DNA of 64,000 bases from Haliotis rufescens. Taxonomy: Eukaryota. A program made the position numbers. The DNA lies in the NCBI RefSeq assembly GCF_023055435.1, contig NW_025963879.1, positions 13,392,001 through 13,456,000 of the forward strand, read 5' to 3'. Of the stretch, positions 17,301-20,300 are shown piece after piece; the first letter of the stretch is position 1, and each line of letters begins with the position of its first letter.

Positions 17301-20300
17301 GTCAGCGATGTCGATCCATTCCATCCGTTTGCTCTTCATTGTTTTAGTGACACACTCAACCAGTGGATATCCGAACAGTAGTATCCCTTTGGAGTGGTCA
17401 AACATTTGTCAATCCGCCATTAACCTTTCAAACGTAGTCATTTCCTGTCACGTGGGTGTTGACGATACATGGGATTTAGATCACTTCCGGAACTGGTCAG
17501 CCATATTGGATAATGACACCCTTGTGTCTCTGGATGTAATGTGTGAAACTAGAGCCAGTATCTGTCTCCCCTGGCCGTACCGAGCCAGACATCTGGACAC
17601 TCTGAAGATCAGGAATTGCATCAACACGTGCTATTTCTCATACTTCAACCGACCGGAAGTGCTGGATATCCCTGACTCCCTGAGGGTGTTTGAAGGATAT
17701 GGTATGACGGAACAGTTTAACGCTATGGATATGTTGTCTGTCGACCTGAAGAGTCTCCCTCCTGCATTGGAGTGTGGACCGATGTCCTTAGAGGTATTCA
17801 TCTACAGGAACACCAAGGCTGACATAATTTACCCCAAAGGTTTTGTGCCGAAAGGGGAGGACGAGGTTACTGACAATATCGTACAAACAGCGCGGGATAT
17901 AAACAAACTTAAACACGTGTGTAACTATAGAAATATGAAGGTCTATGACGCGAGTCAGAGACAAGACTCATCGTCTGTAGGTATATACGCCACTTTCATC
18001 AACTCTCGCTTCCCCAACCTGACAACACTAAACTACTCTTCCACGGAGATACAGGCGTTCCCTTCTATTTTATTATCATGGAAAGGACGCATTGAAAAAC
18101 TACAAATTTTGGATCTGTCCCATAATAACATCTCCCGTTTTGACCTCAGAGTTCAAAGTTTTGAGGCACCAATCAGAGTTATCAACTTAACGTACAACTC
18201 CATTCAAACAATAAAAGAGGCCGAGATCGGATCGTTTCAGTCTTCCGTTGCACAAGTTGTGGACGTGAGACAAAATCCCCTGAGATGCGACTGCGCTATG
18301 GCCGACTTCAGTAACTTTCTCAGAAGACATCCGACGCCAAAAGACGCAGGTCTTAGTCTTGACTACGAATATCTTTGGGATCTCACGTGCGTTGATCCAG
18401 TCAGTAAAAGAGGAAAACAAATTAGTCAATTCTCAAAGAAAGCGCTTTGCAACCTTGATGTCGTGAATGTGGCGTCCTACCAAGCCTTCGTCGCTGTTTT
18501 AGCTGTTGTTGTTGTCATTTTGGTCGCCTTACTCATATTAAGCATCCTTTACAGAGATAATGTTAAATTGCTCATCTCCCGAAGCTGCCGAATCCTGTGT
18601 GGCCGGTCCCCCATCAACGAACAAAACATCAATGATGGACGACACAAAGACGAATCCTCAAAATCTACCCAGGAGAAACTTTAGAAAATATCGATATATT
18701 TTGAGTGAGTGAGTTAGTATGGTTTTACTCCGCTTAATGCAATATTCCAGCAATTTAACGCAGGGGACACCGGAAAATTGGCTTCACACATTGAACCCAT
18801 GTGGGGAATCAAACCCGGGTCTTCGGCATGACGAGCCAATGCTTTAACCACGCGCCCAATATATGTTCAATGCTTATAGGTGTGAGCACACATCTACTAT
18901 TCACTGGAATAGTTGAAACTATTTGTAAGCTTCGTATATTCACTGTTGTAACAAGAGGAAATATTCAGTTAAAACACACACTGTTAGCTCCTGAGACTTA
19001 AACTGCCGGGGAAAAGAAAGTATACACTTGAAAATGGATTGTTTAAAGAATTACAAATGTTGTGAAACATTACTAGGCCTAAGACAGTCGCCGAATTACT
19101 GCAAACCTACGGTCCAAAACACAACAATGATACCATTAATCTTATCAAATGCATCAGCGTCGAATAACCATTTCTCTTTTATTTCATCTTAGCCAACATC
19201 AAACATATGCATGGTGTAAACTTTCTTTTGTCACGCAGTTTTATTCAGACTGATTATAGGATATGTCAGGTATGAAAAACAGCTGTACATTTTCTGTGTT
19301 TTATATTTTATGTGTCATTTAATTGGTGTTTTGATGGTGTGTGTGGGAAGGGTTGTGGGGTGTGGCAGGAATGTGTTGCTATAATTCTCTCTGAATTAAC
19401 TTCGTCTCCTGAAATGGCTTTTTCATACTGTTGGGGCCCAAATATTGGGGTCTTCTTTTTCTTAGCAAATTGGGAAATCTAAATTCTAAAATCGATCCTA
19501 TCAAGTCACGGATATTTTCATTAGATATTCACATCCATCAAAAAAGAAACTATCCGAATCGTTTAACCGATATATAATATGATCTGCCCTATTCGCTCAA
19601 TTTATTTTAACTTTTCTTATCGTTATTTGTCTGAGAGTTTTCAGCTTCACTTTCAGCGTTAATCGAGAGCGTTCGGGAATGCGCTAATCTACCTACACCA
19701 AATGGTTAACACAATAAAAAGTATTTCAACTCTTCGTATCGTTATCACTTATCTACCGACACCACGTGAGCTAAGAACACGATGCCCTATACACATCCAT
19801 NNNNNNNNNNNNNNNNNNNNNNNNNNNNNNNNNNNNNNNNNNNNNNNNNNNNNNNNNNNNNNNNNNNNNNNNNNNNNNNNNNNNNNNNNNNNNNNNNNNN
19901 NNNNNNNNNNNNNNNNNNNNNNNNNNNNNNNNNNNNNNNNNNNNNNNNNNNNNCAAACAATCACGCACACATATACACAATCACTCACACAAACACTCAC
20001 ATACATGTAAACACAACATTGTCAAGAGATACTGAAAAGAAATTAATACTTATTCAGTGACGGGCGGTGTTTCTATGCCTTATAAAACATCGTGTAGACG
20101 TTATCTAACAGTCCAACTGAAACAAGAAGTGAATTGCTGATGTGCAATACTAACTGCCGTGCCATATCCGTATACATATAGGGAAACCTACTGACGGTGT
20201 TAACAGTTTTGAATCAAATAAAACAATTAATAGTATTTAACTTTATTAGATAAGGATTTTAACCACATATGGATAAAACGTTCATCTTCAAGTAAACATA

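What the first reader, a model, noticed from the sequence alone, without database searches (positions are those of the whole stretch)
17480..17815. 336-bp near-identical tract shared by inverted paralogues A and C covers the Cys-rich N-terminal domain
17480-17815 (+) matches the reverse complement of 44010-44345 with about 10 mismatches and no indels, synonymous sites included (HFRNWSAIL...EVFIYRNT). Identity falls sharply on both sides. The copies are 26 kb apart and inverted, so tandem unequal crossover does not easily explain it; conversion or an inversion-type crossover does. Homogenising an ectodomain block is the reverse of the usual pattern, where the TIR is conserved and the ectodomain is variable.
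Basis: seen in the sequence. Interest (0 to 1): 0.7.

Follow-up and report, generated by a model that had tools for sequence, protein, structure and literature searches.

The report
Gene-conversion patch between abalone Toll-like genes
Two diverged Toll-like receptor genes of an abalone, one of which has no signalling domain, carry an almost identical 336-base patch because one copy was pasted over the other, and the same has happened separately in other abalone species.

Summary
Window 17480-17815(+) equals the reverse complement of 44010-44345 at 326 of 336 bases, with no indel. The window is abalone (Haliotis) DNA, not human. It holds a cluster of single-ORF, short-ectodomain Toll-like genes: A (17308-18684 +, no TIR), B (25547-27481 -), C (42595-44628 -) and a decayed B-like fragment. 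Inside the tract A-C dS is 0.056, against about 2.5 (saturated) in both flanks. No one of 10,000 shuffles comes near the observed segment score. In H. rubra and H. asinina proteins, A and C of one species are again the closest pair in this block only. Monophyly of the A orthologues is rejected in the tract (p-AU 1e-4) and has 100/100 support in the flank. This is recurrent interlocus gene conversion, confined to the N-terminal leucine-rich repeats. Gene C also shares a second tract, 454 bp over the TIR, with B (11 mismatches, dS 0.084). The ectodomain tract is therefore not a reversal of the usual pattern: A simply has no TIR to convert. Donor polarity and the inverted orientation (two N runs lie between A and C) stay open. 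It is a new member of a known kind, like TLR1/TLR6.

The parts
17480..17815 (+). Conversion tract, copy in gene A (codons for A residues 59-169; N-terminal leucine-rich repeats)
   Evidence: 326/336 identical to the reverse complement of 44010-44345 with no indel. dS 0.056 against about 2.5 in the flanks. Bounded by mismatches at 17479 and 17816.
44010..44345 (-). Conversion tract, copy in gene C (about residues 96-206)
   Evidence: In the structure model this stretch has block pLDDT 88-96 and regularly spaced strands, which is what a leucine-rich-repeat solenoid looks like.
17308..18684 (+). Gene A: single ORF of 458 aa with signal peptide, LRR ectodomain, transmembrane helix and a 43-aa tail, but no TIR domain
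   Evidence: ORF. Pfam finds only weak LRR matches and no TIR. The ORF is identical to database protein P0007. The H. asinina orthologue P0008 (481 aa) is also TIR-less and has the same C-terminal tail. tblastn with C finds no TIR-like sequence near A.
42595..44628 (-). Gene C: single ORF of 677 aa, a full-length short-ectodomain Toll-like receptor (LRR, TM, TIR)
   Evidence: ORF. Pfam TIR PF01582 at E 3.3e-19, 69.8 bits against a cut-off of 21.3. 96% identical to H. cracherodii 'toll-like receptor 6', P0001, of the same length. Model and Foldseek results.
25547..27481 (-). Gene B: single ORF of 644 aa, a full-length paralogue (LRR, TM, TIR)
   Evidence: ORF. Pfam TIR at E 5.7e-19. 97% identical to H. 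cracherodii P0004. In the A-C tract B is only 74% identical to A or C, with dS about 1.0.
25647..26100 (-). Second conversion tract (TIR domain), copy in gene B
   Evidence: 11 mismatches in 454 bases against 42755-43208, no indel, with a perfectly identical core at 25773-26003. dS 0.084 against 1.1-2.1 in the flanks. Segment score 388 against a maximum of 65 in 10,000 shuffles.
42755..43208 (-). Second conversion tract (TIR domain), copy in gene C
33630..34423 (-). Decayed B-like gene fragment (pseudogene) with stops, frameshifts and an internal deletion that removes most of the tract region
   Evidence: tblastn pieces matching B-type protein at 48-79%. The three-frame translation shows the stops and frame changes. 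blastn gives 83-86% identity to B.
19801..19953 (.). N run between A and the other genes (left unfilled)
   Evidence: It bears on how sure the inverted orientation of A is.
20825..20970 (.). Second N run between A and the other genes (left unfilled)

Best explanation
The 336-bp tract is an interlocus (ectopic) gene-conversion tract in a cluster of short-ectodomain Toll-like receptor genes of an abalone (genus Haliotis). A break in one paralogue was repaired with the homologous stretch of the other as template. No crossover was involved, and one sequence was overwritten in place (inferred mechanism: synthesis-dependent strand annealing). The partners are C, a complete LRR-TM-TIR receptor, and A, an old and conserved paralogue with the same ectodomain architecture and membrane anchor but no TIR. 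The event is not a one-off. The same block (N-terminal leucine-rich repeats, about 111 codons) has been homogenised between A and C separately in the window's lineage, in H. rubra and in H. asinina. This is concerted evolution confined to one block, while the rest of A and C diverges as ordinary orthologue lineages. The tract ends where alignable similarity ends: on the 5' side at the unalignable N-termini, on the 3' side at a variable loop with indels. That fits homology-dependent copying. The block is also the most conserved part of the ectodomain across molluscan relatives, so conversion and conservation probably reinforce each other (inferred). C is a mosaic, since its TIR region carries a second and independent tract shared with B. 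Shown: the tracts, the loss of synonymous divergence, the significance, the phylogenetic incongruence and the TIR-less state of A in two species. Inferred: the repair pathway, the number of events, and whether selection favours the homogenisation. Unknown: which copy was the donor.
For: (1) 10 mismatches in 336 bases and no indel. Third positions are identical at 107/111 codons, against 51/107 and 47/136 in the next segments. (2) A-C dS is 0.056 and dN 0.023 in the tract, against dS 2.6 in the 5' flank and 2.45 in the 3' flank. B against A or C in the same block has dS about 1.0, so the block is not frozen at the nucleotide level. (3) Permutation: 0 of 10,000 shuffles reach the segment score (276 against a maximum of 45). 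Binomial P is 1.5e-40. (4) Protein identities in the tract are A-C 95% (window), 92% (H. rubra) and 92% (H. asinina). A orthologues are 83-90% and C orthologues 81-85%, apart from C of the window against C of H. cracherodii at 96%. In the 3' flank A-C is only 51-59% while orthologues are 73-96%. (5) Of 32 variable columns among the 111 tract columns, 0 show the orthology pattern (A fixed against C fixed) and 11 show 'A equals C in each of three species but differs among species'. In the 3' flank, 69 of 125 columns are variable, and the counts are 18 and 1. With B as outgroup, derived shared states occur in the window lineage (column 146), in the rubra+asinina lineage (columns 117, 152, 165), in asinina alone (120, 156, 184, 198) and in rubra alone (196, 218, 227). 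That implies at least three or four events. (6) Trees of 10 rows: the tract tree groups sequences by lineage, and monophyly of the A orthologues costs 55.6 lnL (p-AU 1.06e-4). The flank tree recovers the A orthologues at 100/100 and rejects the clade (A_win, C_win, C_cra) with p-AU 1e-62. (7) A second tract, B-C over the TIR, has 11/454 mismatches and dS 0.084. B of H. cracherodii keeps HIDSAW where B and C of the window have HHDTTW, which points to C-to-B copying there in the window's lineage. (8) GC3 is raised in both tracts (0.60-0.61 and 0.56-0.57, against 0.35-0.49 elsewhere). GC-biased conversion would produce this, though it is only suggestive. (9) Independent conversion in each species is already documented for TLR1/TLR6 (Kruithof et al. 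2007, PMC2077338, abstract read).
Against: All the cross-species evidence is at protein level. No abalone DNA other than the window could be reached, so synonymous divergence of the orthologues was not measured. The block is conserved across molluscs (consensus motifs). B also shows lower dS (about 1.0) and high GC3 in it, so part of the similarity comes from constraint or codon bias rather than copying. The clades tested by AU were named after I had seen the alignment. The tract alignment has only 111 columns, and the rubra A+C pair has weak support (67/77). The A orthologue of H. rubra is a 325-aa partial model, and no A orthologue of H. cracherodii was found. Donor and direction of the A-C event are unresolved. 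The inverted orientation depends on joins across two N runs, if those are gaps.
Confidence: 0.87

Rival explanations
1. No copying took place. The block is simply under extreme purifying selection, or under a nucleotide-level constraint such as an embedded regulatory or RNA element, so A and C never diverged there.
For: The block holds the motifs best conserved across molluscan relatives (consensus). B also has reduced dS (about 1.0, against 1.6-2.7 in the flanks) and raised GC3 there.
Against: B, under the same protein constraints, differs from A and C at 86-88 of 333 bases with dS about 1.0, while A-C dS is 0.056. Orthologues are less alike than within-species paralogues. 11 of 32 variable columns carry lineage-specific states shared by A and C. 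No Rfam family matches anywhere in the window.
Confidence: 0.02
2. Assembly or polishing artefact: reads from one paralogue were used to build or correct the other, creating a false near-identical patch.
For: The window is scaffolded sequence with two N runs about 1-2 kb beyond gene A. Paralogous immune clusters rich in satellites are hard to assemble.
Against: The patch is 97% identical, not 100%, and its differences are spread evenly. The flanks are too diverged (about 68%) for reads to cross-map. The reading frame is intact in both copies. The same block-restricted A-C similarity appears in annotated proteins from independent assemblies of H. rubra and H. asinina, and C of H. cracherodii carries the same block.
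Confidence: 0.03
3. Reciprocal crossover between inverted repeats (an inversion, or an inversion followed by re-inversion at a second point) produced the pattern, rather than conversion.
For: A and C are on opposite strands 26 kb apart in the window. Crossovers between inverted repeats do invert the interval between them (established knowledge).
Against: A reciprocal exchange swaps sequence between the two genes and does not make them identical. The tract is an internal patch with divergent sequence on both sides in both genes, which needs non-reciprocal copying. No larger inverted duplication surrounds the genes: the only inverted A-C match is 17469-18151 against 44356-43674.
Confidence: 0.03
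4. A single ancient conversion, or a chimeric origin of one gene, took place in the common ancestor of these abalones. Ordinary divergence followed, so there is no recurrence.
For: Many of the species-pattern columns separate only the window lineage from rubra+asinina. Within the window lineage the A-C difference in the block (6 residues) is similar to that between C of the window and C of H. cracherodii (4 residues), so the window's own event is not very recent.
Against: After a single ancestral event A and C would diverge independently. The 11 columns where A and C share a state within each species but differ among species would then need parallel changes in both genes. Private shared states exist for asinina alone and for rubra alone. 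The shared block reaches further 3' in H. rubra (NTKTDLIFPEGFMPKGNDEITDDFVQ is identical in A and C) than in the window. Monophyly of the A orthologues is rejected in the tract.
Confidence: 0.05

Closest known systems
Gene conversion between mammalian TLR1 and TLR6 (Kruithof et al. 2007, BMC Evol Biol 7:148, PMC2077338; abstract read)
   Same: These are neighbouring Toll-like receptor paralogues. In one delimited region the paralogues of a species are more alike than the orthologues, because of independent conversion events in each species. The rest of the gene diverges normally.
   Different: In TLR1/TLR6 the genes lie in tandem, and the tract covers LRR16-19, the C-terminal cap, the TM and most of the TIR. 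Here the A-C tract covers the N-terminal repeats only, the partners lie on opposite strands as assembled, and one partner has no TIR. The B-C tract in the same window (TIR) does resemble the TLR1/TLR6 case.
Paired receptors kept alike by conversion: CEACAM1 and its ITAM-bearing relatives such as CEACAM3 (Kammerer and Zimmermann 2010, BMC Biol 8:12, PMC2832619; abstract read)
   Same: Two membrane receptors have different cytoplasmic signalling capacity. Their outer, ligand-facing domain is kept closely related within each species by gene conversion or recombination.
   Different: These are immunoglobulin-fold receptors of mammals with ITIM against ITAM tails, and a decoy function has been shown for CEACAM3. 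Here the fold is a leucine-rich repeat, the contrast is TIR against no TIR, and nothing is known about ligand or function. The analogy is a lead, not a result.
TIR-less Toll-like molecules such as vertebrate RP105/CD180 (recalled, not checked in any call)
   Same: A membrane-anchored LRR ectodomain of Toll-like type with a short tail instead of a TIR, encoded in addition to signalling TLRs.
   Different: No relationship or sequence exchange with a signalling partner gene was examined for it here. Gene A belongs to a mollusc-specific short-ectodomain subfamily.

Membership tests
Toll-like receptor (genes B and C) | Cytoplasmic TIR domain | tested here: met
   Pfam PF01582 at E 5.7e-19 (B) and 3.3e-19 (C), 69-70 bits against a cut-off of 21.3. 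The model's TIR superposes on the TLR1/2/6/10 TIR structures with TM (target) 0.72-0.81.
Toll-like receptor (genes B and C) | Extracellular leucine-rich-repeat solenoid with caps, followed by one transmembrane helix | tested here: met
   The Pfam LRR matches all fall below the curated cut-offs (16.5-23.9 bits against 20.6-27). The model, however, has about ten regularly spaced short strands over residues 69-357 and a helix at 424-450. About 360 of its columns align to the small LRR ectodomains 5T4, Nogo receptor, SALM3 and FLRT2 (TM target 0.47-0.59) and to part of TLR8. Named relatives are annotated as toll-like receptors.
Toll-like receptor (gene A) | Cytoplasmic TIR domain | tested here: not met
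   Pfam finds no TIR in A. tblastn with C finds no TIR-like sequence in the window apart from B and C. The H. asinina orthologue P0008 ends with the same short tail and has no TIR. A is therefore filed as a Toll-like, TIR-less paralogue, not as a TLR in the strict sense.
Interlocus gene conversion / concerted evolution | A delimited tract of significantly raised identity between paralogues, with diverged flanks on both sides and synonymous sites included | tested here: met
   326/336 identical, dS 0.056 against about 2.5, and 0 of 10,000 shuffles reaching the score.
Interlocus gene conversion / concerted evolution | Phylogenetic incongruence: paralogues group by species in the tract and by orthology outside it | tested here: met
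   Shown at protein level with 10 sequences from four taxa. Not tested at nucleotide level.
Interlocus gene conversion / concerted evolution | Non-reciprocal transfer with an identifiable donor and recipient | tested here: inconclusive
   For A-C, every species with both proteins is homogenised, so no pre-conversion state is visible. For the 5' part of the B-C tract, B of H. cracherodii keeps a different motif, which suggests C-to-B copying in the window's lineage.
Paired activating/decoy receptors | Both members bind the same ligand or each other, with opposite signalling output | not testable with these tools
   Only the shared block and the different tails are seen. No functional data.

The most novel reading that the evidence does not exclude
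A and C form a paired receptor system. A is a membrane-anchored, TIR-less decoy or co-receptor, conserved across abalones, and C is the signalling Toll-like receptor. Selection favours repeated conversion of the N-terminal repeats so that the silent partner always presents the same recognition or contact surface as the signalling one. The block changes between species (11 of its 32 variable columns change in both genes together). This would be a Toll-like counterpart, in a mollusc, of the CEACAM1/CEACAM3 type of co-evolving paired receptors.
Probability: 0.2. Interest if true: 0.6.

Novelty: new member of a known kind. Interest (0 to 1): 0.4.

Why it matters
The window gives a clean, bounded example of how an invertebrate immune-receptor cluster is remodelled. 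Individual genes are mosaics of blocks with different histories, so whole-gene trees of molluscan TLR repertoires can mislead about orthology and about gene age. The window also shows that a TIR-less Toll-like gene is old and conserved in abalones, and that it is kept in step with a signalling neighbour in one ectodomain block only. That is a testable lead to a decoy or co-receptor role. My full-text searches found no report of gene conversion in molluscan TLRs. Searches returned 3 and 22 papers holding the search terms, and none of the titles or abstract openings listed (3 and 12) is on this. The two TLR repertoire or review papers I probed contain no occurrence of 'gene conversion'. A 2023 genome-wide TLR survey of three Haliotis species (Zou et al.) is cited in PMC12521104, but I could not read it.

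Tried and rejected
I had hoped it would yield an A orthologue of H. cracherodii.

2. Complex prediction on the C ectodomain (residues 60-422) with the A ectodomain (residues 21-390) gave 'no answer' (score 0.00, controls not run, alignments not used by the tool). This says nothing for or against A binding C.

3. I looked for a TIR exon of A downstream. tblastn with C finds nothing in 18.7-25.5 kb. The repeat at 18702-18851 first made me suspect a recent truncation by a mobile element. I rejected that idea because the H. asinina orthologue has the same tail and stop.

4. I took H. cracherodii P0005 for the orthologue of the window's decayed fragment. I rejected this: P0005 matches the C locus best (73%), while the fragment is B-like. 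P0005 was left out of the trees because it lacks the start of the tract and has an internal gap.

5. I tried to polarise the 10 A-C differences. At protein level 4 are derived in A (R, Y, M, A), and one position changed in both genes from an inferred V. This is too few to claim relaxed constraint on A, and it does not identify the donor.

6. Rfam gathering scan of the whole window: 0 matches.

7. No DNA of other abalones could be compared. Nucleotide-level orthologue tests therefore stayed undone.

8. I did not use the third homologous-protein search, the search of protein representatives or the protein atlas. They could not have supplied orthologue DNA or the donor.
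Full report
**1. The observation**

I read both stretches and compared them by script.
- Window 17480-17815 on the + strand and the reverse complement of 44010-44345 differ at 10 of 336 positions and have no indel.
- The longest perfect run is 71 bp, and the ten differences are spread evenly.
- On the 5' side, ungapped identity falls within about 60 bases to the level of unrelated sequence. On the 3' side it falls to about 0.6-0.8 until near 18150, where an indel breaks the register.

**2. What the sequences are**

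Stop-to-stop ORFs and tblastn with the longest ORF show three related single-ORF genes and one fragment.
- A lies at 17308-18684 (+), 458 aa.
- B lies at 25547-27481 (-), 644 aa.
- C lies at 42595-44628 (-), 677 aa.
- The fragment lies at 33630-34423 (-). It is B-like and has stops, frameshifts and an internal deletion.

Pfam finds a TIR domain in B and C (E about 1e-19, 69-70 bits against a cut-off of 21.3). In all three genes it finds only sub-threshold LRR matches, and it finds no TIR in A.

A database search with C (68 proteins at E <= 0.001) places the window in the abalone genus Haliotis.
- The best hit is H. cracherodii 'toll-like receptor 6', with the same length and 96% identity.
- Next come H. 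asinina and H. rubra proteins at 80-81%.
- After these come bivalve and gastropod proteins at 28-40%.

The window is therefore molluscan, not human. Annotated orthologues have the same lengths as the window's ORFs, so these are single-exon coding regions and I needed no spliced model.

**3. Gene A is old, not a fresh wreck**

A ends 43 residues after its transmembrane segment, and a dispersed repeat follows at 18702-18851. I first suspected a recent truncation. The H. asinina protein P0008 (481 aa, no TIR) changes that reading.
- It aligns to A over its whole length at 70% identity.
- It ends with the same tail (...INDGRRKDKSLKSTQEKC against ...INDGRHKDESSKSTQEKL).

A partial H. rubra orthologue (P0069, 325 aa) also exists. 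A TIR-less, membrane-anchored Toll-like gene has thus been kept as an open frame across these abalones.

**4. The tract is copying, not constraint or chance**

On a codon alignment of A, B and C, 30-codon windows give A-C identity of 0.94-0.99 in the tract and 0.63-0.78 just 3' of it.

| Comparison (Nei-Gojobori) | Differences | dS | dN |
|---|---|---|---|
| A-C, tract | 10 in 333 nt | 0.056 | 0.023 |
| A-C, 5' flank | – | 2.6 (saturated) | – |
| A-C, 3' flank | – | 2.45 (saturated) | – |
| B against A or C, same block | 86-88 | about 1.0 | – |

- The block is therefore free to change at silent sites.
- Third positions are identical at 107 of 111 codons in the tract, against 51 of 107 and 47 of 136 further on.
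- A best-segment score of 276 was never approached in 10,000 shuffles of the aligned columns (maximum 45).
- The binomial probability at the flank identity is 1.5e-40.

**5. The same block is homogenised in other abalones**

I aligned eleven proteins. They were A, B and C of the window; C, B and a fourth paralogue (P0005) of H. cracherodii; A, C and B of H. rubra; and A and C of H. asinina.

| Pair (protein identity) | Tract | 3' flank |
|---|---|---|
| A-C within a species | 95% (window), 92% (rubra), 92% (asinina) | 51-59% |
| A orthologues | 83-90% | – |
| C of rubra vs C of asinina | 84% | – |
| Orthologues overall | – | 73-96% |

The column patterns, scored on the six A and C sequences of the three taxa, say the same thing.

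| Segment | Columns | Variable | A fixed against C fixed | A equals C in each species, differing among species |
|---|---|---|---|---|
| Tract | 111 | 32 | 0 | 11 |
| 3' flank | 125 | 69 | 18 | 1 |

With B as outgroup, shared derived states are private to several lineages:
- the window lineage (column 146);
- rubra+asinina (columns 117, 152, 165);
- asinina alone (120, 156, 184, 198);
- rubra alone (196, 218, 227).

That implies at least three or four separate homogenisations. In H. rubra the shared stretch runs about 30 residues further 3' than in the window, so tract borders differ by lineage.

I built maximum-likelihood trees of ten rows. P0005 was left out because it lacks the start of the block.
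- The tract tree groups sequences by lineage, and forcing the A orthologues together costs 55.6 log-likelihood units (p-AU 1.06e-4).
- The flank tree recovers the A orthologues at 100/100 and rejects a window-lineage A+C clade (p-AU 1e-62).

There are caveats. I named these groups after seeing the alignment. The tract has only 111 columns. All of this evidence is at protein level.

**6. A second tract and a mosaic gene**

B and C are near-identical over the TIR.
- B 25647-26100 against C 42755-43208 shows 11 mismatches in 454 bases and no indel.
- There is a 231-bp perfect core.
- dS is 0.084 against 1.1-2.1 in the flanks.
- The segment score is 388 against a maximum of 65 in 10,000 shuffles.

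Along its length C is closest to different paralogues in turn.

| Alignment columns | Closest paralogue of C | Identity |
|---|---|---|
| 109-219 | A | 97% |
| 220-329 | A | 68.5% (63.6% to B) |
| 330-470 | B | 65.7% (50.5% to A) |
| 490-629 | B | 97% |

- B of H. cracherodii has HIDSAW where B and C of the window, and C of H. cracherodii, have HHDTTW. This suggests C-to-B copying in the window's lineage for that part.
- P0005 of H. cracherodii is C-like from the C-terminal cap through the TM and TIR, and it carries the A/C-type block.

Exchange among members of the cluster is thus general. The A-C ectodomain tract is one instance of it.

**7. What the block encodes**

I made an AlphaFold2 model of C from a 36-row alignment.
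- Mean pLDDT is 75. In 10-residue blocks it is mostly above 80 over residues 60-380, and 88-96 across the tract.
- The model shows about ten regularly spaced short strands between residues 69 and 357, a helix at 424-450, and a TIR fold.

Foldseek against the PDB gave two kinds of match.
- The TIR matched the TLR1, TLR2, TLR6 and TLR10 TIR domains (TM by target 0.72-0.81).
- About 360 ectodomain columns matched the small LRR ectodomains 5T4, Nogo receptor, SALM3 and FLRT2 (0.47-0.59) and parts of TLR8.

The 'Cys-rich N-terminal domain' is therefore the N-terminal run of irregular leucine-rich repeats of a single solenoid. It has 5 Cys in 111 residues. The block also holds the motifs best conserved across the molluscan relatives (consensus ...ISLPWPxRAxxLxxLxVxxC...IPDxL...CGPxxLExxIxRN).

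**8. Mechanism**

Shown: non-reciprocal identity of an internal patch, in frame and without indels, bounded on both sides by diverged sequence.

Inferred: repair of a break in one gene with the paralogue as template and without crossover. The tract ends where similarity becomes too low.
- On the 5' side the N-termini of A and C are unalignable (28-50% nucleotide identity).
- On the 3' side there is a variable loop with indels in B and a dip in model confidence.

A reciprocal crossover between inverted copies would invert the interval and swap flanks. It cannot make the copies identical, so conversion is needed whatever the orientation. GC3 is raised in both tracts: 0.60-0.61 in A, B and C for the N-terminal block and 0.56-0.57 for the TIR tract, against 0.35-0.49 elsewhere. 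Long-term GC-biased conversion would give this, but codon preference could too.

Why this block? The simplest account is neutral. It is the most conserved part of the ectodomain, so it keeps enough identity for ectopic repair, and each event resets the clock. The bolder account is selective: A is a decoy or co-receptor that must present the same surface as C. I cannot tell the two apart.

**9. Limits**
- Orientation. Two N runs (19801-19953, 20825-20970) lie between A and the other genes. If they are assembly gaps, the inverted orientation of A rests on the scaffold joins. I did not fill them or look them up.
- Donor. It is unresolved. At the six amino-acid differences, four are derived in A and one position changed in both genes. 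This dates nothing and names no donor.
- Age. The A-C difference in the block (6 residues) is similar to that between C of the window and C of H. cracherodii (4 residues). The window's own event is probably about as old as that species split.
- Orthologue DNA. No collection with abalone DNA was on hand, and the closed collections were not touched.
- Cluster members.

**10. Comparison with what is known**

The closest precedent is TLR1/TLR6 in mammals. There, independent conversion in each of nine species keeps a region from LRR16 to the TIR alike (PMC2077338, abstract read). The B-C tract here has that shape. The A-C tract differs in its position (N-terminal repeats), in the assembled orientation, and in having a TIR-less partner.

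A functional analogy is the CEACAM1/CEACAM3 type of paired receptors. Their ligand-binding domains are kept related by conversion (PMC2832619, abstract read).

Full-text searches gave the following.
- 'Haliotis' + 'toll-like receptor' + 'gene conversion' returned 3 papers.
- 'gene conversion' + 'toll-like receptor' + 'mollusc' returned 22 papers, of which 12 were listed.
- No title or abstract opening in these listings reports conversion in molluscan TLRs.
- A molluscan TLR repertoire paper (PMC10279657) and a 2025 review (PMC12521104) have no occurrence of 'gene conversion'.
- A 2023 survey of TLR genes in three Haliotis species is cited in that review, but I could not read it. Supplements were closed.

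**11. Verdict**

This is a real and statistically overwhelming gene-conversion tract, one of at least two in this cluster, and it recurs across abalone lineages. It is a new member of a known kind. Interest is moderate: the mechanism is textbook. Two features are worth following up: the block-restricted concerted evolution between a conserved TIR-less gene and a signalling receptor, and the mosaic make-up of C.

Noticed in passing
window 25647-26100 and 42755-43208: A second near-identical tract lies between B and C over the TIR domain: 11 mismatches in 454 bp, a 231-bp perfect core, and dS 0.084 against 1.1-2.1 in the flanks.
   Followed up: yes
window 33630-34423 (-): A decayed B-like Toll-like gene fragment with stops, frameshifts and an internal deletion. 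It is not the orthologue of the fourth H. cracherodii paralogue P0005, which has no counterpart of its own in this window.
   Followed up: partly
window 109-219 of the codon alignment (A 17482-17814, B about 26919-27251, C 44011-44343): GC3 is about 0.60-0.61 in all three paralogues in the N-terminal block, including B, which is not currently homogenised. Neighbouring segments have 0.40-0.49. B also has lower dS to A and C here (about 1.0) than in the flanks. This could be a trace of older conversion involving B, or codon preference.
   Followed up: partly
window 29199-29891 (-) and 36435-37500 (-): Remnants of Tc1/mariner-type transposases (Pfam DDE_3, HTH_Tnp_Tc3_2) lie between the receptor genes. 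The second is split over two frames.
   Followed up: partly
window 8456-10651, 30477-31651, 39754-42121, 46368-49124: There are large minisatellite arrays (periods 40, 18, 18 and 28-29 bp; 55 to 132 copies). Two of them flank gene C at 0.5-2 kb, and the 18-bp unit recurs at 28.6-28.9 kb and 30.4-31.9 kb. Whether they promote breaks near C was not examined.
   Followed up: no
window 18702-18851, 2678-2822, 45877-45984: A short dispersed repeat (81-93% identity) sits just after the stop of A and about 1.2 kb upstream of C. It is not the cause of A's lack of a TIR, since the H. asinina orthologue has the same tail.
   Followed up: partly
window 15425-16479 (+): Two overlapping long ORFs (295 and 174 aa) lie upstream of A and have no Pfam match. 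They may be a decayed mobile-element gene.
   Followed up: partly
H. cracherodii protein P0005 (no locus held): This fourth paralogue shares two residues in the block (I in GASICLPW, M in GYGMTEQ) with the window's A rather than C. From the C-terminal cap to the TIR it is almost identical to C. This is another mosaic, and it hints that those two A-type states predate the split of the two species.
   Followed up: no
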